Translations under genes and position numbers: made by a program
Virus record (IMG/VR): IMGVR_UViG_2695420687_000006
From: a virus
Taxonomy: Duplodnaviria; Heunggongvirae; Uroviricota; Caudoviricetes
Length of the DNA stretch: 7,582 bases
Reading direction: 5' to 3' (one strand)
The notes under the pieces: model-generated
The model's database searches: none
What the model was told of the DNA's origin: nothing
Seen by the model: the letters and a program-made list of their open reading frames with translations, nothing else
Shown here: piece by piece, positions 1-7,582 of the stretch
How the letters are laid out: each line of letters begins with the position of its first letter
How positions within the stretch are numbered: position 1 is the first letter of the stretch

Positions 1-52
1 CGCATCAGTTCCGGCGCGCTGCCGTCAATGGTGAACAGGTCACGCGCCACGC

Positions 53-499
53 CTACCGCCAGTTCCGGGTAGCCGCTAATACTTCCGGATCGTAATCACG
101 ACCATCGCGGGGAGCTGGAATATGGCCCACTGCCTCCGCCACCATCTGCTCAAGCATCGGACGCACATCATCGGGGGTGATACTTTTGCCGTCCGCCGGT
201 ACCGGAATATTCGCAACCGCATCATTCACCGCCTGCTGCAGTACATCCGGATCATAATCACGACCATCACGCGGTACCGAAATGGCCCCCACAGCGTCAT
301 CCACCATCGCCTGCAGAACCGGACGCACCTCATCCACCGTCACATGCTTCTGTAATACCGCCGACAGGGAAGTCAGTTTCTCTTCAAACGCTTGTGCCTG
401 CGAGGCCATCTTCCCCTCAAATGTGCGCTGTAAATCCGCCAGCACCGTGGAGAATTCTTCACCCAGCGCACGGATAATGGACAGTTCACGCTCTGTCAT
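53..499 (-). CDS. hypothetical head-module protein, 148 aa, with N-terminal helical region and internally duplicated motif (DVRPxLxxMVxxAVGxIPxPRDGRDYDP)
   Basis: Complete 148-codon ORF. Its ATG (499..497) overlaps the portal stop codon (498..496) in an ATGA arrangement, suggesting translational coupling. Residues 56-84 and 110-138 are near-identical, with a shorter related unit between them. No family recognised by eye. Confidence 0.6.
   Translation of the reverse strand: MTERELSIIRALGEEFSTVLADLQRTFEGKMASQAQAFEEKLTSLSAVLQKHVTVDEVRPVLQAMVDDAVGAISVPRDGRDYDPDVLQQAVNDAVANIPVPADGKSITPDDVRPMLEQMVAEAVGHIPAPRDGRDYDPEVLAATRNWR
56..334. repeat. intragenic tandem duplication, about 162-bp period with about 81-bp sub-repeats
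   Basis: The DNA starting near 85 (ccggatcgtaatcacgaccatc...) recurs near 247 (ccggatcataatcacgaccatc...) and similarity continues for about 90 bp. This matches the 54-aa spacing of the repeated peptide motif on the minus strand. Confidence 0.6.
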
Positions 500-1860
500 T
501 TTCGCAGTATCCCCCTGAACATCGCCTTCACCGCATCACGCTCTGTTTCGCTTATGGCCTTATTACCGTCAGATGCGCCCTCCTGGCGTGTGCCTGACGA
601 CGTTTTCCCGGAAGACGCGAACGGATCCTCACGGGCATCACGACGGGACAGCGCCTCCAGACTGTAGTTCTGCTGCTGAAGATACAGTGCATCACCGCCG
701 GCAAGGGGCGGCAGGTTCTCACGTTTACGGGCCTCATTGGGCGTGAGAAGCGTATTTTTCACCGATTCACCCAGCGTTTTCATGCGACGTTCGCTGTCCA
801 TTCTCAGCAGCGTGGTGACGTCAAACTCCGTGCTCTCGTTTTCCCCTGTTTCCAGCGCCTCATCCAGTAACAGCTCAATGGACTCAATCAGCGTCTGCAG
901 ACACTGGGAATAATACTGCTGCTCCAGCGCCTCCACGTTGTCACTGGAAGGCGGCTGGCCAACGCCAATCTTGTAGGCCGGGACACGGAACACCGAACAG
1001 ACAATTTCAGCCGTCATCTTCAGTTGTTCCACCGTCTGCGCATCCACCGGTGAAAACGTCGTGGGGTTATATTTCGCCCCATTGCTCAGGATCGCCGTTT
1101 TCCCCGCATTTTCGCCGGTATACCCGCTGTCCCAGTTGCTCTTCAGTTTTTTCGCATTTTCTTCCGTTATACTGCCGGGGATCTCAATCACCCCGGACGG
1201 CCTGCCGCCATTTCTGAAAAAAGACGTTGAATTTGCCTGAATATGATGCCCCTGCGTGGCCGCCAGCCCGGCGGCATACACCGGCGGCAGCCCCACAAGC
1301 GGATGAAAAAAACAGTTAAACCGGTCGTGGATCACTTCCCGGGCAGGCACCGTCACCGCCTCCGTGATCCCGCAGTTCCGGTCCGGTGTAATGCGATAGA
1401 ACACCTCGCCGTCATCCGCCACCAGAGGTTCAACCCGGCTCCAGTCCAGAATACGCAGTTCTTTGATCTGCCCCCGGGAGTTACGGATTTTCAGCACCAC
1501 CGTATTGCCGTGACGCAGTTTGGCGTTCAGCCACAGTTCAAAAAACTGGATACGATTCTGCTGTGCATTGGGACGACGACAGAGACGGGCAATATCCCCC
1601 TGCCGTTTTTCACGGCGGATCCCCTGTGTATCGGTCTGCATCAGGCGCAGTCGCATTTTGGCGATATCCTGGGATATCAGCGAAATGCAAGAAAACACCG
1701 CATGAAAGGAGAGGACACTTTCCGGATCGGCTTTCACGCCCTGCTGCCAGGCACCGGCAAAAGGCTCAGCCACCGCCTGAAACAGGCTGGTCCAGCCCAC
1801 CTCTTTTACATCACGTCCTGATTTCTGGTTTTTTCGGGTTCGCCGCAAAAGGTTCCACAT
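496..1860 (-). CDS. phage portal protein (HK97-family-like)
   Basis: 454-aa ORF. The N-terminal segment ESVLSFHAVFSCISLISQDIAKMRLRL resembles the conserved N-terminal motif of HK97-type portals, and size and position fit a head module. ATG at 1860..1858 has GGAG 11-14 nt upstream and an in-frame TGA just upstream, so no longer form exists. Start codon could still be slightly downstream. Confidence 0.8.
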   Translation of the reverse strand: MWNLLRRTRKNQKSGRDVKEVGWTSLFQAVAEPFAGAWQQGVKADPESVLSFHAVFSCISLISQDIAKMRLRLMQTDTQGIRREKRQGDIARLCRRPNAQQNRIQFFELWLNAKLRHGNTVVLKIRNSRGQIKELRILDWSRVEPLVADDGEVFYRITPDRNCGITEAVTVPAREVIHDRFNCFFHPLVGLPPVYAAGLAATQGHHIQANSTSFFRNGGRPSGVIEIPGSITEENAKKLKSNWDSGYTGENAGKTAILSNGAKYNPTTFSPVDAQTVEQLKMTAEIVCSVFRVPAYKIGVGQPPSSDNVEALEQQYYSQCLQTLIESIELLLDEALETGENESTEFDVTTLLRMDSERRMKTLGESVKNTLLTPNEARKRENLPPLAGGDALYLQQQNYSLEALSRRDAREDPFASSGKTSSGTRQEGASDGNKAISETERDAVKAMFRGILRK

Positions 1861-2027
1861 TCGCCATGCTCCGCATCACGTTTCTTTTTCTGACCTGCCG
1901 GACGTCGCACTGTGATGTACTCCGCCTTCCCCAGGCGAACCAGCACCTCCGCACACGGCTGTGCCACATCACGGATATCCCCGGCCCGGGCATCATGCGT
2001 GCCCTGCAGATATCGGATCTTTGCCAT
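1806..2027 (-). CDS. hypothetical small protein (73 codons), doubtful
   Basis: The only ORF in the otherwise unexplained 212-bp gap between the capsid and portal genes. It begins 9 nt after a GC-rich stem-loop and its last 55 nt overlap the portal start in another frame. The Shine-Dalgarno is weak (AGG too close to the ATG) and no family is recognised. Confidence 0.25.
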   Translation of the reverse strand: MAKIRYLQGTHDARAGDIRDVAQPCAEVLVRLGKAEYITVRRPAGQKKKRDAEHGECGTFCGEPEKTRNQDVM

Positions 2028-2036
2028 AACCTGTTA

Positions 2037-2056
2037 CGGGAGGCGCACGCCTCCCG
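2037..2056 (-). other. GC-rich stem-loop (8-9 bp arms cgggaggcg / cgcctcccg) immediately downstream of the capsid gene stop
   Basis: Perfect inverted repeat read directly from the sequence. It is not followed by a U-tract on either strand, so it is not a canonical intrinsic terminator. It could be an RNA stability or processing element. Confidence 0.4.
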
Positions 2057-2071
2057 TCCTCCTCATCAGAC

Positions 2072-3433
2072 TCAGCCGCCGGACGCACTGCCGTAGTTCA
2101 CTCCTGTGATCACCGCCACCGCCGCAGTACGGCGACGACGCCAGTTGATCCAGCGCTCCGCACGGATGGCCACGCTGCCTGTCTGGAACATGGAAACCAG
2201 CTCCACCGGGGACGGCGTAGTACTGTCGCCGGTCGGTTCAGACTGCATCTCCAGTGACGCTTCACGGGACATATCCACCGCCACACCGCCGTCATCAGCC
2301 AGATAAATATCCGGCGCATTCACCAGCACCAGCTGGTCACCCACGTACTGGGAGACAATCACCGGCAGGCCCTGGAAGGTGCCGCCAAGCAGGGTCATGT
2401 CCGGGTATTCCTTCTGACCCAGCGCATTTTTACGCATGGACAGCGCCAGGGCATTCGTGCTGGACATCAGCCAGACAGCACCAGTGGGCTGCAGATTTGC
2501 CGTCACAAACTGGCCAAACGCGGCCTCGGCATCCGCATCCGGGTTACCGGTTGATGCCGTGCCCTTCACATCATGGGTGATGGACGCCGGGGAGACATCC
2601 GCCACCGCCGCTTTTTTCGGGTCCACAAAGTCTGTATCCAGACGCGCCACTACCGCTTCCGCCAGCGCATTACGGACCAGTGCATCAGCAGCCGGACTGG
2701 AAAAACGGATCAATTCTTCCGTCAGTACCGCAATGGCCGACACTTTCGCATGACTGAAGGTGATGGATTCAAAATCAAACTTCGTCAGGGGTTTTGCCTT
2801 ACCCTCACCCACCCAGCCGGCAGCACCGCCGGACACCTGGGCGTGCACACGGATATTGAACGGCACCTGACGAAGTGCAGGGATCCCGCCCTGACCAAAT
2901 CGCCCGATAATGGTCTGCGGACGCAGGTAATCAATAAAGTCCTGTGCGTATTCCTGATATTCAGACAGGCTGCCTGCCCACTGCGGATCCGTGGTGGTCC
3001 CCGCGCCCACTGCCGATTTCAGGACATGATGCAGACGACTGTCATCCGGATACTGACGACGGGCCACTTCCAGGGCTTCAGATCGGACGCCTTTAGCCGC
3101 AGCCAGCGATTTGGCAAAGCGGGCGAAGCCAATCCCCTTCTCCAGTTTCTGCTCCACACGGATCACCGGCGCTGAAGCCACCGCGGCCACATTCCCGTTA
3201 CCGGCCTGTTTCACCGGCTGCGCCGTGGCGGCCTTACCGGCTTCCAGTTCACGCAGGCGCTTCAGGTGCGCATCCACCTGACGGATTTCCGCTGCGGTGT
3301 TGTCGTAATGCTCTTCCTCCTCCACATCCAGCGTGCGCCCTTCCTCTGCGGCTTTGGTCATGACCTCCTCAAGGGAGGCTGCCAGCGCTGCACGCTTGTT
3401 TTCAAAACTTTTAATCTGTTCGCCAATATTCAT
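2072..3433 (-). CDS. candidate internally initiated major capsid protein (delta domain plus HK97-fold body, 453 aa), nested in frame in the protease-capsid ORF
   Basis: An in-frame ATG at 3433..3431 (Met193) is preceded by AAGGAA with about 9-nt spacing and lies exactly at the linker to delta-domain junction (MNIGEQIKSFENKRAAL...). Whether it is used cannot be decided from sequence. Confidence 0.35.
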   Translation of the reverse strand: MNIGEQIKSFENKRAALAASLEEVMTKAAEEGRTLDVEEEEHYDNTAAEIRQVDAHLKRLRELEAGKAATAQPVKQAGNGNVAAVASAPVIRVEQKLEKGIGFARFAKSLAAAKGVRSEALEVARRQYPDDSRLHHVLKSAVGAGTTTDPQWAGSLSEYQEYAQDFIDYLRPQTIIGRFGQGGIPALRQVPFNIRVHAQVSGGAAGWVGEGKAKPLTKFDFESITFSHAKVSAIAVLTEELIRFSSPAADALVRNALAEAVVARLDTDFVDPKKAAVADVSPASITHDVKGTASTGNPDADAEAAFGQFVTANLQPTGAVWLMSSTNALALSMRKNALGQKEYPDMTLLGGTFQGLPVIVSQYVGDQLVLVNAPDIYLADDGGVAVDMSREASLEMQSEPTGDSTTPSPVELVSMFQTGSVAIRAERWINWRRRRTAAVAVITGVNYGSASGG

Positions 3434-4009
3434 TATGGTCTTTTCCTTATGAAAAACGGTTGTTGACTGTGCCGCAGCGCCGGCAGAAGATGCGATTTTC
3501 ACCACCGGTTTCCGGTTGCCGGACGCGGCAGAAAACGGGCGGTCGAAAGATTTAATGGTCCGGATGGTGCATTCCGCATTCGCGGGCACGGTGACGGCAG
3601 ACACCTCCATCAGTTCCCAGCGCAGAAAATGCAGTCCGCCTCCGTCCAGAAAGGTGTATTCATGGGGACGGAAGCCCACGGACAGCCCCCTGACCAGCCC
3701 GGTCTTAATGGCCGCCCAGACCTCATCCAGCCGGGCTGCCATCTGGGAGGGCATCCCCGGCTCCGGCTTCACCAGCATTGCCGTGATTTCCAGCCCTTCC
3801 CTGACCCGACGCACCGTACACTGGCCTACAGGGCGGGAATGGTCATGCTGCCAGAGAAACGGGATCGTACTGCCAAACTCCGCCCCCTCCGGCTCCAGGA
3901 TGTCACCATCCCGATCCGGAGAAGGCGTTGACGCAATCCCGGTGATCACCCGTTCATCCTCACTGAAGGATTTCACCGTCAGCAGGGAACAGGCCCGTTT
4001 AAGAGTCAC
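2072..4009 (-). CDS. prohead serine protease (S78/U35-like N-terminal domain) fused in frame to an HK97-fold major capsid protein with scaffold-like delta region
   Basis: 645-aa ORF. The N-terminal 155 aa carry prohead-protease-like motifs (ITGIASTPSPDRDGDILEPEGAEF, IPFLWQHDHSRPVG, GLSVGFRP, EVSAVTVPANAECTI). An Ala/Ser-rich linker follows, then a charged helical region (EQIKSFENKRAALAASLEEV...LKRLRELEAGKA) typical of a capsid delta domain, then an HK97-type capsid body. GTG start at 4009..4007 with AGGAGG 5 nt upstream. Confidence 0.85.
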   Translation of the reverse strand: MTLKRACSLLTVKSFSEDERVITGIASTPSPDRDGDILEPEGAEFGSTIPFLWQHDHSRPVGQCTVRRVREGLEITAMLVKPEPGMPSQMAARLDEVWAAIKTGLVRGLSVGFRPHEYTFLDGGGLHFLRWELMEVSAVTVPANAECTIRTIKSFDRPFSAASGNRKPVVKIASSAGAAAQSTTVFHKEKTIMNIGEQIKSFENKRAALAASLEEVMTKAAEEGRTLDVEEEEHYDNTAAEIRQVDAHLKRLRELEAGKAATAQPVKQAGNGNVAAVASAPVIRVEQKLEKGIGFARFAKSLAAAKGVRSEALEVARRQYPDDSRLHHVLKSAVGAGTTTDPQWAGSLSEYQEYAQDFIDYLRPQTIIGRFGQGGIPALRQVPFNIRVHAQVSGGAAGWVGEGKAKPLTKFDFESITFSHAKVSAIAVLTEELIRFSSPAADALVRNALAEAVVARLDTDFVDPKKAAVADVSPASITHDVKGTASTGNPDADAEAAFGQFVTANLQPTGAVWLMSSTNALALSMRKNALGQKEYPDMTLLGGTFQGLPVIVSQYVGDQLVLVNAPDIYLADDGGVAVDMSREASLEMQSEPTGDSTTPSPVELVSMFQTGSVAIRAERWINWRRRRTAAVAVITGVNYGSASGG

Positions 4010-4020
4010 ATCAGCCTCCT

Positions 4021-4047
4021 GAAAATAAAAAAACCGCCGCAGCGGTT
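4021..4047 (-). terminator. candidate rho-independent terminator (minus strand) between terL and the capsid gene
   Basis: The minus-strand transcript reads AACCGC-UGCG-GCGGUU followed by UUUUUUAUUUU. This is a 6-bp stem with 4-nt loop and U-tract, sitting directly upstream of the capsid Shine-Dalgarno. The stem is short, so strength is uncertain. Confidence 0.45.
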
Positions 4048-4072
4048 CATGATGGTTACAGGGTGAGCAGGG

Positions 4073-5734
4073 TTATATGAAAAAAACCTCATACGCTTTC
4101 TTTTTCGGTTCCGGATTCAGGGACATCAGGGACACCGCATTGAAGAGCGCCATCAGCGGGTCAATTTTTCCCCGTCCGCTGGCCTGTTTGGTGATAAGAA
4201 TGGCGTTACCTTTAGGCTCCACCCGGGCATTGCCAACGCACCAGGCCATCAGTGGCTGACCACCATGCACCAGCACTCCCTCAGCCAGTTTGCGCTCGGT
4301 GGTTTTGATGGCCCCGCCCAGCTTCCAGCCCTGGCTTATCCCCACCACACTCTCATCGGGGATCCCGGCTTCCGCCAGTGAATCCAGAATCTGCCCCACA
4401 CCTGACGGGTCAATACCGATATGATCCAGTAACTCAGCCTCATGAATACGACGCACATACTCCGCCACTTCCGCCGTGTCATCCCCGACCCGACGGACAA
4501 TCGTCATGTCTCCACAGGCCACAAAATCCTGAAACCGGGATGCCTCACTCTTCCGTCTGACCACCGCGGTTTCATGCACCCAGGCATGGCCCCAGCCCAG
4601 CCATTCGCGGGTTTCCCTGTCACGGCCAGTCACGTACATTCCCAGCAGATCATCCAGGCCCCCGCCGTCAATCCCCACCGTCACCACATCAGCGCGCTGC
4701 AGGATATCGTCCAGGCTGACGCGCCTGCCCTGCTGCTCCCAGAAATCCGCGCCCGCCCAGCGGTCAGAACGCAGGGCAAGACCGATTTCCACATTGGCGT
4801 GTTTTGACATGAAGCCACGAAATGCTTCCTCACCAGCCTCCCGGGCTTTACGGTACTCCCGGTACAGAAAAGCCTCATCCACCGAATAACCGAGATTCGG
4901 ATTGACCATGGCGAGGTTTTCCATCAGCAGGTGAGCCCCGCTTTCCACCATTTCAGGAGGGTGTTCAAATATCACCGGCAGAAAGTGCGGATCATGAATT
5001 TTGCCGTCGCGCACATCCCGGGCGTACTGCAGTTTCTGTCTGAACACCCCGGCGGGCGGTTCATTCGACTGGGTGGTCGTATACACCACAAACCCTTCCG
5101 GGCGGGAGGCAAGGCCGCCTATGGCTTCACGTAACATGTCCTCCGCCTTGCACTGCTTGCCAAACAGCCACAACTCATCAATCAGCGTACCCACGGACTT
5201 GATACCAGACACCGTATTCGGATCGGCTGCCACCACCTTCAGGGTGGTGTCTGTCACCCTGTGGGTGATGGTCCGGATATGGGTCTGTACCTGGCAGAGG
5301 TCATCCAGATCATCGTCACGTCGTACCATATCCCGGGCAGGGTTGAAGGCGTTGGCCGCCACCTCCACAGTCGGGGCCAGAATCGTGTAACCCGCCGCCT
5401 GCCGCCAGTTCAGTAACAGCGCCGTCATCATGATCCCCGCGGCCAGCGTGGACTTCGAGTTTTTCTTGGGGATAAGGATAAAAACTTCCTTGATATGGCG
5501 TACACCGGTCTGCGCATCGTAGGAGCCAAACAGGGCCGCCACCAGGTCAAACACCCACGGTGCACAGGACTCCCCGAACGTCGGGCTACCAGGTGCATCC
5601 ACAATCCGCAGTTGTTTAAAAATCGCCAGGGCATGTGCGGCCTCGTCCGGATAAATCGGATCCGGAATAATCGACAGCCCCTTTTTCAGGCGCTCTGCCC
5701 AGTCCGGGCAGGCTGTGCTCCATACAGGTATCAT
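4073..5734 (-). CDS. terL: terminase large subunit (Terminase_1 / HK97-like family)
   Basis: 553-aa ORF. It has a Walker-A-like segment FILIPKKNSKSTLAAG, an ATPase coupling segment GTLIDELWLFG, and a C-terminal nuclease-like region (VTVGIDGGGLDD ... GRGKIDPLMALFNAV). ATG at 5734 overlaps the terS stop (ATGA), with GAGG 8 nt upstream. Confidence 0.9.
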   Translation of the reverse strand: MIPVWSTACPDWAERLKKGLSIIPDPIYPDEAAHALAIFKQLRIVDAPGSPTFGESCAPWVFDLVAALFGSYDAQTGVRHIKEVFILIPKKNSKSTLAAGIMMTALLLNWRQAAGYTILAPTVEVAANAFNPARDMVRRDDDLDDLCQVQTHIRTITHRVTDTTLKVVAADPNTVSGIKSVGTLIDELWLFGKQCKAEDMLREAIGGLASRPEGFVVYTTTQSNEPPAGVFRQKLQYARDVRDGKIHDPHFLPVIFEHPPEMVESGAHLLMENLAMVNPNLGYSVDEAFLYREYRKAREAGEEAFRGFMSKHANVEIGLALRSDRWAGADFWEQQGRRVSLDDILQRADVVTVGIDGGGLDDLLGMYVTGRDRETREWLGWGHAWVHETAVVRRKSEASRFQDFVACGDMTIVRRVGDDTAEVAEYVRRIHEAELLDHIGIDPSGVGQILDSLAEAGIPDESVVGISQGWKLGGAIKTTERKLAEGVLVHGGQPLMAWCVGNARVEPKGNAILITKQASGRGKIDPLMALFNAVSLMSLNPEPKKKAYEVFFI

Positions 5735-6294
5735 CCGCTTTCCTCATTATCGTTATTCACCACCAGTCGGGGTGGCGGTGGCACCGCAAAACGGTTAGCC
5801 GCTTTTTTCGCGGCATCACCTTTTGCCGATTTTTTCCCGGTATCCCCTTTTTTATGGTGCGTGAACTGCGCCAGACGCCAGGCCGCATCCAGTGCCAGTT
5901 TCGGATCAATGCAGAGGTTTTCCACCAGGATCCGCCCCATGGCTTTCACCGGATCGGGAAGACCATCCTCCATATATTCAATACCAGGAGACATCACCGC
6001 GGACGGTGGCATCTCCGGATTGTTTTCGTCCGGCTGTGGTATTGCAGCCGCCTCACGGCGACGGGGTTTATCCTCCTGCTCTGATTTTTTCTGCCGGTAA
6101 ACAGGAACCTCATCCACCTCCACCGTCTCGCATTGTTTACGGGCTATAAACGCAAGCACCTCCGGATCTTTTGCCAGCTGCGAGCCTTTAACCCTGGCGG
6201 TCTTCGCCGAATAACCAGCGGCAATGGCTGACGCTGTTTTGTTTTTCCCGGACATGAGCGCCAGCGCAAATTTTCGTTTTTGCGTTGTCAGCAC
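5731..6294 (-). CDS. terS: terminase small subunit (N-terminal HTH resembling the Terminase_2 / SPP1 G1P-type motif)
   Basis: 187-aa ORF. The N-terminus LTTQKRKFALALMSGKNKTASAIAAGYSAKTARVKGSQLAKDPEV matches the LTxKQxxF...NxTxAAxxAGYSxKxAxxxGxxLxxxPxV pattern of small terminase DNA-binding domains. GTG start at 6294..6292 with GGGAGGAGG immediately upstream. It sits directly upstream of terL and overlaps it. Confidence 0.75.
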   Translation of the reverse strand: MLTTQKRKFALALMSGKNKTASAIAAGYSAKTARVKGSQLAKDPEVLAFIARKQCETVEVDEVPVYRQKKSEQEDKPRRREAAAIPQPDENNPEMPPSAVMSPGIEYMEDGLPDPVKAMGRILVENLCIDPKLALDAAWRLAQFTHHKKGDTGKKSAKGDAAKKAANRFAVPPPPRLVVNNDNEESG

Positions 6295-6366
6295 AGCCTC
6301 CTCCCGGGTCCAGAACGCACTCAGCCGGGTATGGTTCAGCCCATTTTTCCCGGCGTCTCATGCCGC

Positions 6367-6493
6367 AAATGTTAACTGCTGCCTGGTTAACATTTGCTGA
6401 AAAAGCCAGTTAACATTTTTTCCGCACAACAAACTGAATAATAAAGATAAAAACCGCAAAAATGCCCGGGCAGCCAGTTAACATGTTAACTGC
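6367..6493. repeat. cluster of GTTAAC-core inverted repeats including an 18-bp perfect palindrome; candidate cos / terminase or regulator binding region
   Basis: The half-site CAGTTAACAT (or its reverse complement ATGTTAACTG) occurs at 6369-6378, 6385-6393 (degenerate) and 6407-6416. At 6475-6492 it forms the perfect palindrome CAGTTAACATGTTAACTG. An AT-rich spacer lies at 6417-6465. The cluster sits in the non-coding region between the HNH and terS genes. Confidence 0.4.
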
Positions 6494-6582
6494 CCTGAAA
6501 CGGGAATTTTTTCTCTGCGTGAGAGGGGGCGCGGTGTCCGGAGCGATCGTTTTTTACGCCGGATGATACCCCCCCGCTCGGG

Positions 6583-6948
6583 TTACAGTCCGATGATGTC
6601 GTCCGCTCTGCCACTACCTCCGGACACCTCCGGCAGCGTCGGGTCCGGCATACCACCCGCCGCTTCACGAGCAGACTTTTGTCGATGGCATTCGGTACAG
6701 AGCGTCCAGAGATTCGTCTCCTCATTACCACCACCGAACTGAAGTGCAATGCGGTGATCGAGTTCACTGTCACAGAGGTCAACCACACGACCACAGAGAC
6801 AGCACTGCCCGGCATCCCTGAGCCAGATATGACGCTTGAGGGAAACACGTGCACTGCCACTGACACGACGCTGTTCACCCTTCAGAATATTCACCCGTCG
6901 GGTATTCAGTGTTTTGATTCTGCTCTGGAGTGTACGAAGCTCAGCCAT
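6583..6948 (-). CDS. HNH endonuclease (phage packaging-associated)
   Basis: 121-aa ORF with a canonical HNH motif: CCLCG ... LDH ... NEETNLWTLCTECH (C-x2-C, D-H, N, C-x2-C-H). It lies immediately upstream of terS and terL, as in HK97-like cos phages. Confidence 0.9.
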   Translation of the reverse strand: MAELRTLQSRIKTLNTRRVNILKGEQRRVSGSARVSLKRHIWLRDAGQCCLCGRVVDLCDSELDHRIALQFGGGNEETNLWTLCTECHRQKSAREAAGGMPDPTLPEVSGGSGRADDIIGL

Positions 6949-6989
6949 GTAAAATCCCCGTCATATGGCAATCAGTAAAGGAAATAAAT

Positions 6990-7190
6990 ATGTCATCGAA
7001 AAACCGGACCCGCAGAACCACAACCCGCAATATCCGTTTCCCCAATCACATGATTGAACAGATCAATATCGCCCTTGAACATAAAGGTTCCGGTAACTTT
7101 TCAGCGTGGGTTATTGAAGCCTGCAGGAGAAGGCTGGCAACAGATGCAACGCATCTGCGTCCGGCCAGCATGACAAATAACGAGAAATGA
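6990..7190 (+). CDS. small ribbon-helix-helix-like DNA-binding protein (66 aa), resembling YlcI/YnfO-type small prophage proteins
   Basis: ATG at 6990 with AAGGA about 8 nt upstream. The pattern RNIRFPNHMIEQINIALEHKGSGNFSAWVIEACRRRL fits a beta-strand plus two helices. The longer track ORF from 6930 would overlap the HNH start and lacks a ribosome-binding site, so the 6990 start is preferred. The family resemblance is from memory and unverified. Confidence 0.55.
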   Translation: MSSKNRTRRTTTRNIRFPNHMIEQINIALEHKGSGNFSAWVIEACRRRLATDATHLRPASMTNNEK

Positions 7191-7321
7191 ACGTTCGGTT
7201 ACAGGAGCAGGCACCCACTGTCCTCCAACAATATTTCATCTTCATACCCGGCGGAACAAGACTTACCCAGCCGGAATGTACAGAATAACAACAGAGTGAT
7301 AATTAATTTCTGATGAAATAA

Positions 7322-7582
7322 TCAGGGTGCAGAAGGACTAAAGATAAACGTTTTCTTCACGCCTTTACGCGGCCTATCCTTCTCAAATCGCCATTTTGCC
7401 ATCGCCTTTACAACCTGCTCATCAAACAGATGGTGCGGCTCTGAACGGATAAACTCAATTCGGGTAACAGTACAAAGCCCACGTAACGGGCGCAATATAA
7501 ATACTCCTGTCGAGTGAATTATTTTTTGTTTATGATCAAGTTCACATCTTTTTTGATGCTTGCATGAACCAGAAGAAGGGGA
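7322..7582 (-). CDS. hypothetical protein, 5'-partial at window edge (or 57-aa protein from TTG at 7495)
   Basis: The minus-strand frame is open from the window edge to TGA at 7324..7322 (87 stop-free codons in an AT-rich region). An internal TTG at 7495..7493 is preceded by AGGAG with 8-nt spacing. C-terminal sequence is ...HHLFDEQVVKAMAKWRFEKDRPRKGVKKTFIFSPSAP. No family recognised. Confidence 0.3.
   Translation of the reverse strand, partial: SPSSGSCKHQKRCELDHKQKIIHSTGVFILRPLRGLCTVTRIEFIRSEPHHLFDEQVVKAMAKWRFEKDRPRKGVKKTFIFSPSAP

What the first reader, a model, noticed from the sequence alone, without database searches (positions are those of the whole stretch)
53..499. Portal-coupled 148-aa protein built from an internal tandem duplication with a PRDGRDYDP-containing repeat
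The gene is translationally coupled to the portal gene (ATGA overlap), so it is very likely expressed, yet it matches no family recognisable by eye. Its C-terminal two-thirds is a recent-looking duplication of a roughly 27/54-aa unit, mirrored by a 162-bp DNA repeat, which could vary in copy number by recombination. In the position after the portal one would expect connector, decoration or scaffold-type proteins. The helical N-terminus plus repeats suggest a structural or scaffold-like role.
Basis: seen in the sequence. Interest (0 to 1): 0.5.

Follow-up and report, generated by a model that had tools for sequence, protein, structure and literature searches.

The report
Truncated portal-adjacent phage repeat gene
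The 148-aa "protein" is the first 140 codons of a much longer, widespread but uncharacterised phage gene that sits just after the portal gene, cut off here by a junction with the unrelated chromosomal gene fixC, so this copy is a broken remnant and not a complete small protein.

Summary
The ORF lies at 53..499 (-), its ATG overlaps the portal stop (ATGA), and it holds a 54-aa/162-bp internal repeat well above chance.

The ORF is not a natural protein, however. Window bases 1-79 are fixC, a core E. coli gene, joined bluntly to the phage repeat. The last 8 codons and the stop are therefore fixC DNA read out of frame.

Intact relatives are 245-569 aa. They have a conserved N-terminal helix, 1-7 copies of the 54-aa unit, and a conserved ~135-aa beta domain with a chitin-binding-like (CBM5/12) module. 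All of this C-terminal part is missing here.

The gene always follows the portal gene and precedes the gp6-like adaptor gene. It is a separate, overlapping gene in at least ten enterobacterial genera and is under purifying selection.

In some E. coli prophages one extra G (G6 instead of G5) fuses it to the portal. This explains the "portal protein" and "frameshifted" labels in databases.

Its function is untested. The best inference is a portal-vertex accessory structural protein. The window copy is ordinary decay or an assembly chimera. The gene family is moderately interesting.

The parts
1..79 (-). 3' fragment of the chromosomal gene fixC (about nt 1127-1205 of the 1287-nt gene), in the same orientation as the phage genes. 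It is not phage DNA.
   Evidence: 98.7% identity to fixC in 5,404 E. coli genomes. The alignment shows identity up to base 79 and none beyond.
78..81 (.). Breakpoint (79|80) between fixC DNA and the phage repeat, with at most 1 nt of shared sequence.
   Evidence: Three-way alignment of the window, fixC and phage Stx1_14744. No complete E. coli genome spans it. The exact junction was found only in IMG/VR contig L012 and not in the species-representative genomes.
53..499 (-). Chimeric 148-aa ORF: 140 phage codons (80-499) plus 8 codons and a TAG stop (53-79) read from fixC out of frame.
   Evidence: Intact relatives continue ...DYDPEVLKQAVNDAV... where the window reads ...DYDPEV-LAATRNWR*.
335..499 (-). 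Conserved N-terminal segment (aa 1-55, M[T/N]ERELS..LGEEF...), predicted to be a single long helix. Inferred to be the portal-docking end.
   Evidence: Conserved across 26 homologues from many genera. AlphaFold helix 3-52, pLDDT 58-69. It sits directly after the portal C-terminus in fused forms.
167..328 (-). Repeat unit 1 (aa 58-111). It has two half-units, each a short helix followed by a Pro-rich turn (VPRDGRDYDP / VPADGKSITPDD).
   Evidence: Helix/turn pattern.
80..166 (-). Repeat unit 2, incomplete (aa 112-140), cut by the fixC junction.
496..499 (-). ATGA overlap: the ORF2 start ATG (499-497) and the portal stop TGA (498-496).
   Evidence: The same 4-nt overlap is found in E. coli relatives, Salmonella phage FSL SP-016 and eight other genera.
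511..515 (-). G5 tract (codons AGG GGG for the conserved Arg-Gly near the portal C-terminus). It is also a Shine-Dalgarno-like AGGGGG 11 nt before the ATG. A sixth G here fuses the portal and ORF2 into one frame.
   Evidence: G5 in the window and in L001, L002, L004 and L005; G6 in L007, which encodes the 837-aa fusion P0101. IMG/VR pattern counts: G5 at least 80 loci, G6 42 loci.
496..1860 (-). Portal gene (454 aa, HK97 type), intact.
   Evidence: Pfam PF04860 6.6e-81 and TIGR01537 2.1e-106.

Best explanation
The 148-aa ORF is the 5' 140 codons of a longer phage gene, called ORF2 here, that lies between the portal gene and the gp6-like head-tail adaptor gene in an HK97-type head module. The module order is HNH, TerS, TerL, protease-capsid fusion, small ORF, portal, ORF2, adaptor.

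In this sequence the gene is cut inside its second repeat unit and joined to the 3' end of chromosomal fixC. The reading frame therefore runs 8 codons into foreign DNA and stops. The conserved C-terminal domain and all neck and tail genes are absent, so this copy is a non-functional remnant. The remnant comes either from a real deletion or from a chimeric contig end.

Intact ORF2 (245-569 aa in E. coli prophages) has three parts:
1. A conserved ~55-aa N-terminal helix.
2. A spacer of 1-7 tandem 54-aa units (helix plus Pro-rich turn) that expands and contracts by recombination.
3. A conserved ~135-aa beta domain ending in a CBM5/12-like (chitin-binding-type) module.

Shown: ORF2 is normally a separate gene whose ATG overlaps the portal stop (ATGA), and its stop overlaps the adaptor start. 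It is under purifying selection. A single-base change in a G5/G6 tract 15 nt upstream has repeatedly fused it in frame to the portal C-terminus in E. coli prophages. An independent fusion exists in a distant lineage.

Inferred: ORF2 is translated by termination-reinitiation coupling, helped by the AGGGGG Shine-Dalgarno-like tract. It is a portal-vertex accessory structural protein whose N-terminal helix docks on the portal and whose repeats hold the C-terminal binding domain at a variable distance. Portal C-termini normally face the capsid interior (general knowledge of portal structures). The fusions therefore favour an internal, portal-tethered protein, comparable in position to SPP1 gp7/MuF or the P22 portal barrel, over an external neck fibre. 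This is not settled.

The confidence of 0.8 applies to the anatomy: a truncated fragment of a separate, portal-coupled gene of this family. The structural role is about 0.5, and the internal location about 0.55 of that.
For: Truncation:
- fixC identity of bases 1-79 and a clean breakpoint.
- Relatives have 487-, 515-, 407- and 461-aa ORFs with the same start.
- Length classes differ in 54-aa steps and end in the canonical ...AAKRGRDAGGGK.

Separate, coupled gene:
- The same ATGA junction occurs in E. coli, Salmonella phage FSL SP-016 and Phytobacter, Kosakonia, Atlantibacter, Kluyvera, Buttiauxella, Enterobacter, Citrobacter and Pantoea.
- All 120 listed homologues in the Salmonella-phage search (Salmonella, Enterobacter, Klebsiella, Cronobacter, Kosakonia, Citrobacter, Pantoea and others) lack a precomputed portal domain, and nearly all are 285-410 aa (one is 463 aa).
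- ORF2's stop overlaps the adaptor start by 4 nt (coordinates).

Selection:
- dN/dS is 0.34 (N-terminus) and 0.18 (C-domain) among G5 alleles, the same as among G6 alleles.

Fusion by one G:
-. Phage 2851 encodes an 859-aa fused portal. BP-4795 has 454 + 461 aa.
- G6 occurs on at least 6 portal haplotype clusters, and G5 alleles occur with 0 differences in 900 nt from G6 alleles.
- Independent fusion P0379 (1237 aa) is seen on 4 contigs.

Synteny in distant members.

Architecture:
- Alignment A1 and the AlphaFold models.
- Pfam CBM_5_12 is above threshold in P0320 (31.1 vs 26.2 bits) and just below in the others.

Viability of split-layout phages:
- FSL SP-016 was isolated as a temperate siphovirus (PMC3728262).
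- PhiESI is a related phage isolated from coculture; whether it shares the split layout was not checked (bioRxiv 10.64898/2026.03.17.712176).
- Stx1 phage Lys8385Vzw was induced and is annotated with 'portal proteins' in the plural (PMC7946995).
Against: - No experiment shows the protein in virions or shows its location. I found no paper on it in four literature searches.
- The full-length AlphaFold model is poor (mean pLDDT 48.6) and the C-domain model only moderate (66.6). Foldseek TM-scores are low (0.24-0.32).
- A CBM5/12-type domain, a short collagen-like G-x-y run in non-E. coli members, and a variable stalk are what one expects of an external fibre. This sits awkwardly with an internal location.
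- The fusions may be merely tolerated accidents of a slippery G tract and carry no information about function.
- The G5 alleles found on G6 haplotypes could be sequencing errors in draft assemblies.
- The window and L012 are identical over 7,465 nt, so they are not independent evidence that the fixC junction is real.
Confidence: 0.8

Rival explanations
1. One reading: a complete, free-standing 148-aa protein (helical N-terminus plus about two repeats) made by coupling to the portal, acting as a small connector, decoration or scaffold protein.
For: The ORF, the ATGA overlap and the repeat are all present.
Against: The last 8 codons and the stop are fixC DNA. Only one other surveyed locus has this ending, and that locus (L012) is the same sequence. 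Intact homologues are 245-569 aa and carry a strongly conserved C-terminal domain.
Confidence: 0.02
2. The PGAP view: portal and ORF2 are one gene, a ~860-970-aa portal with a C-terminal extension, and the G5 state is an inactivating frameshift. On this view the window's portal/ORF2 pair was already a pseudogene before truncation.
For: RefSeq annotates the 2.9-kb span as a 'phage portal protein, frameshifted'. Contiguous fused ORFs exist (P0101 and P0102 at 837 aa, phage 2851 at 859 aa). Two records call it a pseudogene.
Against: The two-ORF layout with the identical ATGA overlap and a conserved Met start is found in ten genera, including the isolated phage FSL SP-016, where no G tract exists. 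G5 alleles are more numerous and far more diverse than G6 alleles. ORF2 remains intact and under purifying selection in G5 alleles. The 454-aa portal contains the whole portal domain.
Confidence: 0.08
3. A programmed -1 ribosomal frameshift at CGA AAA UGA (tRNA-Lys slipping back on A AAA, with the AGGGGG tract as an upstream stimulator, as in dnaX or B. subtilis cdd) makes some portal-ORF2 fusion from split alleles, in addition to free portal.
For: The ORF2 frame is -1 relative to the portal. The sequence A AAA UGA allows perfect re-pairing of tRNA-Lys. A Shine-Dalgarno-like AGGGGG lies 8 nt upstream (and my own knowledge of dnaX and cdd frameshift sites). The fused product is evidently tolerated.
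Against: In most other genera the junction is ACC AAA TGA or GCC AAA TGA, where a -1 slip would land on CAA, so the slippery motif is not conserved. One distant member has an 18-nt spacer, another an 8-nt overlap. The conserved ATG and the conserved MNERELS start fit independent initiation. No canonical X XXY YYZ heptamer is present.
Confidence: 0.05
4. The fixC junction, and the ~109-nt foreign tail at the other window end, are chimeric contig ends from a draft assembly and not a real deletion. The source prophage may carry an intact ORF2.
For: None of 5,426 complete E. coli genomes spans the junction. The only other record with it (L012) is identical over 7,465 nt and its contig ends at exactly the same base. 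The right end of the window (about 7466-7582) also switches abruptly to unrelated chromosomal-like sequence (the ydfZ-rspR intergenic region, 92%) where L012 continues as phage. Tandem repeats are classic assembly break points.
Against: The join is clean and was reproduced in two records that differ at the other end. All other phage genes in the window are intact, which also fits a recent real deletion. There are no read data to test this.
Confidence: 0.45

Closest known systems
PHROG families 1289, 2271 and 8767 (labelled 'portal protein' or unknown), including ORF59 of phage BP-4795, the second 'portal protein' of phage JLK-2012, and the C-terminal half of the phage 2851 portal
   Same: Direct homologues. 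The window ORF matches phrog_8767 (3e-94), phrog_2271 positions 455-598 (1e-88) and phrog_1289 (2e-50). The position after the portal, the start and the repeats are all the same.
   Different: The window copy stops after 140 codons and lacks the C-terminal domain. The family itself has no demonstrated function, and its 'portal' label comes from fused members.
SPP1 gp7 / Mu gpF (MuF) minor head proteins
   Same: They are encoded immediately after the portal gene, bind the portal inside the capsid, are sometimes fused to the portal, and carry variable C-terminal domains (my own knowledge). ORF2 shares the gene position and the recurrent fusion to the portal.
   Different: No sequence similarity: no Phage_Mu_F hit in the Pfam scans. 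ORF2 has tandem helix/Pro repeats and a CBM5/12-like end. Its location in the virion is untested.
P22 portal C-terminal helical barrel
   Same: A long helical extension follows the portal crown and projects into the capsid (my own knowledge). In fused alleles the ~50-residue ORF2 helix follows the portal C-terminus directly.
   Different: In most lineages here it is supplied as a separate polypeptide. It is followed by a variable repeat spacer and a beta domain, which P22 lacks. No homology was shown.
Neck or collar fibres (T4 fibritin whiskers, TP901-1/Tuc2009 neck passage structure) and CBM5/12-tipped phage fibres
   Same: An N-terminal anchor, a repeat stalk of variable length and a distal beta binding domain. 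The gene lies among the neck genes. The C-domain resembles chitin-binding modules and tailspike or fibre proteins.
   Different: External fibres are not expected to be fused to a portal C-terminus, which faces the capsid interior. No trimeric coiled coil or foldon was shown, and similarity scores are low.
Homopolymer-tract (slipped-strand) phase variation of bacterial and phage genes
   Same: A G5/G6 tract toggles the reading frame. Both states are common and occur on several haplotypes.
   Different: Both states leave both coding regions translatable (split versus fused), so this is not an on/off switch. A 5-6-nt tract is short for high-frequency switching. No evidence of within-population switching was obtained.

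Membership tests
Portal-adjacent ORF2 family (PHROG 1289/2271/8767) | Conserved N-terminal M[T/N]ERELS..LGEEF helical segment | tested here: met
   The window's aa 1-55 align to phrog_8767 and phrog_2271 and to alignment A1.
Portal-adjacent ORF2 family (PHROG 1289/2271/8767) | Tandem 27/54-aa helix plus PxPxDG repeat units | tested here: met
   About 1.5 units are present. Relatives have 1-7.
Portal-adjacent ORF2 family (PHROG 1289/2271/8767) | Conserved ~135-aa C-terminal beta domain (..GGLWRAYEKTHGMRGWEC..GDTVTWGGSLWHC..) | tested here: not met
   Absent: the ORF runs into fixC after codon 140. The window copy is therefore a fragment of a family member and not an intact member.
Portal-adjacent ORF2 family (PHROG 1289/2271/8767) | Start codon overlapping the portal stop; gene followed by the gp6-like adaptor gene | tested here: inconclusive
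   The upstream overlap is met. The downstream adaptor gene is deleted or absent in the window.
Phage portal protein (Pfam PF04860 / TIGR01537) | Portal domain (wing, stem, clip, crown) detectable by the family HMM | tested here: not met
   No portal hit for the 148-aa ORF or for full-length ORF2. The hit lies only in the upstream 454-aa ORF or in the N-terminal half of fusions. The 'portal protein' label for ORF2 is a name carried over from fusions.
gp6-like head-tail connector (Pfam PF05135 / TIGR01560) | Match to the connector/adaptor HMM | tested here: not met
   ORF2 homologues that NCBI names 'gp6-like head-tail connector' do not match these models. Only the next gene does.
SPP1 gp7 / MuF minor head protein (Pfam PF04233) | MuF domain | tested here: not met
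   No such hit in the Pfam scans of the window ORF or of full-length homologues. The resemblance is in gene position and portal fusion only.
CBM5/12 carbohydrate-binding module (Pfam PF02839) | HMM score above the gathering threshold, and the fold | tested here: inconclusive
Programmed -1 ribosomal frameshift site | Conserved slippery sequence that allows re-pairing in the -1 frame, kept across relatives | tested here: not met
   A AAA UGA occurs in E. coli and SP-016, but ACC/GCC AAA TGA occurs in most genera. Other junction geometries occur in distant members.

The most novel reading that the evidence does not exclude
ORF2 may define an undescribed class of portal-tethered virion protein: a helix that docks on (or is fused to) the portal crown, a length-variable spacer and a glycan-binding end. 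The G5/G6 tract in E. coli prophages would then act as a heritable switch between a free and a covalently portal-fused form, changing virion properties. If the protein is internal, its CBM5/12-like domain could act on peptidoglycan after being ejected ahead of the DNA.
Probability: 0.15. Interest if true: 0.6.

Novelty: new member of a known kind. Interest (0 to 1): 0.3.

Why it matters
For this window it matters little. The ORF is a broken remnant of a prophage gene and should not be treated as a small novel protein.

Three points have wider use:

1. RefSeq/PGAP flags the portal gene as "frameshifted" in both E. coli prophages inspected here. Yet the two-gene layout is conserved across the enterobacterial genera sampled and is under selection. 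That label, and the names "portal protein" and "gp6-like connector" for ORF2, are probably systematic mis-annotations.

2. ORF2 belongs to a large family (5,403 clusters at 50% identity with E <= 0.001) in a well-studied head module. It includes Stx-converting phages of EHEC, and no function has been assigned to it.

3. Recurrent fusion to the portal gives a concrete, testable hypothesis about where the protein sits in the virion.

Tried and rejected
- Tandem Repeats Finder on the window found nothing, because there are fewer than two copies.
- Pfam and NCBIfam on the 148-aa ORF gave only sub-threshold noise: Mnd1, DUF4244, Secretin_N, LipB.
- The precomputed 'PF28083 QatB' tag on homologues is marked faint and was disregarded. 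The TetR_C_35, FliG_N and DUF4244 hits on full-length ORF2 have no individually significant stretch and are summed weak repeat matches, so I disregarded them too.
- PDB sequence searches with one protein and with the family profile found nothing meaningful.
- The full-length AlphaFold model was too poor to use for fold search. I used a C-domain-only model instead.
- A programmed -1 frameshift at A AAA UGA was considered and rejected because the motif is not conserved.
- The junction pattern search in species-representative genomes found nothing, so the source organism stays unidentified.
- Four literature searches found no study of this protein.
- The long antisense ORFs across the repeat (77 aa here, 448-493 aa in relatives) were judged a by-product of the repeated, stop-free sequence.
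- I did not use the third fold-search job, the metagenome scan or the third homologue search, because the question seemed settled without them.

Full report
**What is in the window.** On the minus strand the window carries an HK97-type head-packaging module:
- HNH endonuclease (6583-6948)
- small terminase (5731-6294)
- large terminase (4073-5734)
- a prohead protease/major capsid fusion (2072-4009)
- a 73-aa ORF (1806-2027)
- a 454-aa portal (496-1860)
- the flagged ORF (53-499)

These assignments rest. Bases 80-7473 are 97-98% identical to lambdoid prophages found in over a thousand complete E. coli genomes, and to Stx1a, Stx2a and Stx2c converting phages.

**Checking the observation.**
- The ORF is real. 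Its ATG (499-497) overlaps the portal TGA (498-496).
- The internal repeat is real. Two DNA copies lie 162 bp apart at 75% identity.
- At protein level, aa 58-84 and 112-138 share 19 of 27 residues. The maximum in 2,000 shuffles was 11.
- Each 54-aa unit consists of two related half-units, a short helix followed by VPRDGRDYDP or VPADGKSITPDD.

**The ORF is truncated.**
- Window bases 1-79 do not match the phage relatives. They are 98.7% identical to fixC, a core chromosomal gene, in 5,404 E. coli genomes. They lie inside the fixC coding sequence in the same orientation as the phage genes.
- A three-way alignment shows a clean switch at 79|80 with at most one shared base.
- Exactly 140 codons are phage-derived. 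Codons 141-148 (LAATRNWR) and the TAG stop come from fixC read out of frame.
- In intact relatives the same gene, with the same start, encodes 487 and 515 aa (two E. coli chromosomes), 407 aa (phages JLK-2012 and Stx1_14744) and 461 aa (BP-4795). It is followed by the adaptor, head-closure, gp10-like, tail-terminator, major-tail and tape-measure genes. None of these is in the window.
- No complete E. coli genome spans the junction. The exact junction occurs in one IMG/VR contig, L012. That contig is identical to the window over 7,465 nt and ends at the same base. It is absent from the species-representative genomes.
- The other end of the window (about 7466-7582) also switches to chromosomal-like DNA, the ydfZ-rspR intergenic region at 92% identity, where L012 continues as phage.
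- I cannot tell whether these are real deletion joints or chimeric contig ends. Either way, the 148-aa product is not a natural protein.

**What the intact gene looks like.** I surveyed 122 IMG/VR loci that carry the junction motif.
- Complete ORF2 copies fall into length classes of 245, 299, 353, 407, 461, 515 and 569 aa. These are steps of 54 aa, corresponding to 1-7 DGRDYDP units, with a constant C-terminal end. Short-read assemblies may collapse repeats, but finished genomes and phage records also differ.
- An alignment of 26 homologues from many genera shows three parts: a conserved N-terminal ~55 residues, a variable repeat spacer, and a very strongly conserved ~135-residue C-terminal domain.
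- AlphaFold gives a long helix (3-52), a string of short helices through the repeats, and a beta-rich C-domain. Overall confidence is low, with mean pLDDT 48.6.
- The C-domain modelled alone reaches pLDDT 66.6.
- BFVD matches are collagen-repeat, CBM5/12 and fibre proteins, with low TM-scores.
- Pfam CBM_5_12 is above its threshold in one distant member and just below in the others.
- No solved structure is related by sequence.

**Relation to the portal.**
- PHROG 2271, an 859-position 'portal protein' profile, aligns the window's portal to positions 1-451 and the 148-aa ORF to positions 455-598.
- Contiguous fusions exist: P0101 and P0102 (837 aa) and the 859-aa portal of phage 2851.
- At the DNA level the only relevant difference is one G. 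Fused alleles read TTCAGGGGGGATACTG, while the window and all split relatives have five Gs. The tract encodes a conserved Arg-Gly near the portal C-terminus.
- Both alleles are common. There are at least 80 G5 loci (the listing cap) and 42 G6 loci in IMG/VR. Among the 60 of 92 phage records listed, 6 rows (5 distinct phages) are contiguous and the rest are split.
- G6 occurs on at least six portal haplotype clusters. Three G5 alleles sit inside the main G6 cluster, and two of them (L017, L045) are identical to G6 alleles over the 900 nt upstream. The tract has therefore changed length repeatedly, although sequencing error in some drafts cannot be excluded.

**Which state is the norm?** The split state.
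- Salmonella phage FSL SP-016 was isolated as a temperate siphovirus (PMC3728262). Its portal ends ...RGFLTK and is overlapped by the ATG of a 347-aa ORF2, with AGAGGA in place of the G tract.
- The same 4-nt overlap and the same MNERELS start occur in prophages of Phytobacter, Kosakonia, Atlantibacter, Kluyvera, Buttiauxella, Enterobacter, Citrobacter and Pantoea.
- All 120 listed homologues from the Salmonella-phage search lack a portal domain.
- ORF2's stop also overlaps the adaptor start (coordinates).
- Among G5 alleles, dN/dS is 0.34 for the N-terminal 70 codons and 0.18 for the C-domain, the same as among G6 alleles. Most G5 copies retain the canonical C-terminus.
- The PGAP call 'frameshifted portal' is therefore most likely an annotation artefact caused by fused reference proteins.
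- NCBI's name 'gp6-like head-tail connector' for stand-alone ORF2 is not supported by any model. Only the next gene matches PF05135 and TIGR01560.

**Frameshifting considered.** The ORF2 frame is -1 relative to the portal. CGA AAA UGA preceded by AGGGGG resembles known -1 sites (my own knowledge of dnaX and B. subtilis cdd). However, most genera have ACC or GCC AAA TGA, and distant members have an 8-nt overlap or an 18-nt spacer. A conserved programmed frameshift is therefore not supported. Termination-reinitiation at the overlapping ATG is the simplest mechanism, but this is inferred and not shown.

**Family size and context.**
- An exhaustive phmmer search finds 5,403 clusters at 50% identity with E <= 0.001, and 627 with E <= 1e-30.
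- Ten long members have no Pfam domain, except P0379. This 1,237-aa protein has a portal domain at 50-379 and an ORF2-like region at 896-1232, with about 20 helix/Pro-rich repeats between. It occurs on four contigs from JGI and ENA samples, in the same gene order. It is an independent portal fusion.
- Two other distant members also sit immediately after the portal gene. One of them is followed by the adaptor gene.

**How it most likely works.**
- Shown: a separate gene tightly packed between portal and adaptor; a conserved N-terminus; a variable repeat spacer; a conserved beta C-domain with a CBM5/12-like module; recurrent fusion to the portal C-terminus; purifying selection.
- Inferred: the N-terminal helix docks on the portal, the repeats act as a spacer of adjustable length, and the C-domain is the working end.
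- Portal C-termini face the capsid interior in all solved portals I know of. The fusions therefore favour an internal, portal-tethered protein, comparable in position to SPP1 gp7/MuF or the P22 barrel.
- The fibre-like build and the glycan-binding-type end would fit an external neck fibre better.
- My rough weights are 55% internal, 30% external and 15% something else. Virion proteomics and cryo-EM would decide.

**Verdict.** The sequence features were seen correctly, but the '148-aa protein' is a truncated remnant and not a novel small protein. The underlying gene family is already in databases (PHROGs; annotated in Stx phages), but it is uncharacterised and widely mislabelled. The one-G switch between split and fused forms is a neat, modestly interesting detail.

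Noticed in passing
window 7466-7582: The right end of the window departs from the otherwise identical contig L012 and from all phage relatives. It resembles the chromosomal ydfZ-rspR intergenic region at only ~92% identity, and it truncates a phage 'TonB family' ORF (7322-7495). This is a second abrupt junction with non-phage DNA. The low identity hints that the host may not be typical E. coli.
   Followed up: partly
window 1806-2027 (-): A conserved 73-aa ORF sits between the capsid and portal genes and overlaps the portal start by about 55 nt. It is annotated as hypothetical in E. coli and in phages. Small ORFs occupy the same position in Salmonella phage FSL SP-016 and in the distant locus L134. 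Function unknown.
   Followed up: no
window 2072-4009 (-): The prohead protease (Peptidase_S78) and the HK97-type major capsid protein are fused in one 645-aa ORF placed before the portal gene. This order is unusual compared with HK97 itself (portal, protease, capsid).
   Followed up: no
window 122-355 (+); L001 2795-4276 (+); L002 3092-4438 (+): Long stop-free antisense ORFs (77 aa here, 448-493 aa in relatives) run across the repeat region. They are probably a by-product of the repeated sequence and not a gene.
   Followed up: no
L001 2874-5781, L002 3035-5943 (RefSeq annotation): PGAP annotates the portal plus ORF2 as one 'frameshifted' pseudogene in both E. coli prophages inspected (possibly in many more, not counted). 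Elsewhere NCBI names stand-alone ORF2 'gp6-like head-tail connector protein', although it matches no connector model. Both look like systematic annotation errors.
   Followed up: partly
L001 2957-4420 (-), plus three G6 loci: A recurrent ORF2 variant ends ...VTWGARCGTATV in place of ...VTWGGSLWHC..., which is a frameshift inside the CBM5/12-like motif. It was seen at lengths of 325, 379 and 487 aa. Some prophage copies therefore carry a damaged C-domain.
   Followed up: no
L131 (phage vB_EcoS_phi330) 3060-3200: This phage has the G6 tract but is still annotated as two ORFs. An additional indel upstream appears to end the portal frame early (portal CDS ends at 3135, ORF2 starts at 3165).
   Followed up: no
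window 6930-7190 (+): A YlcI/YnfO family (DUF3950) ORF lies on the opposite strand next to the HNH gene. It is flagged as frameshifted in one E. coli relative and is intact here.
   Followed up: no
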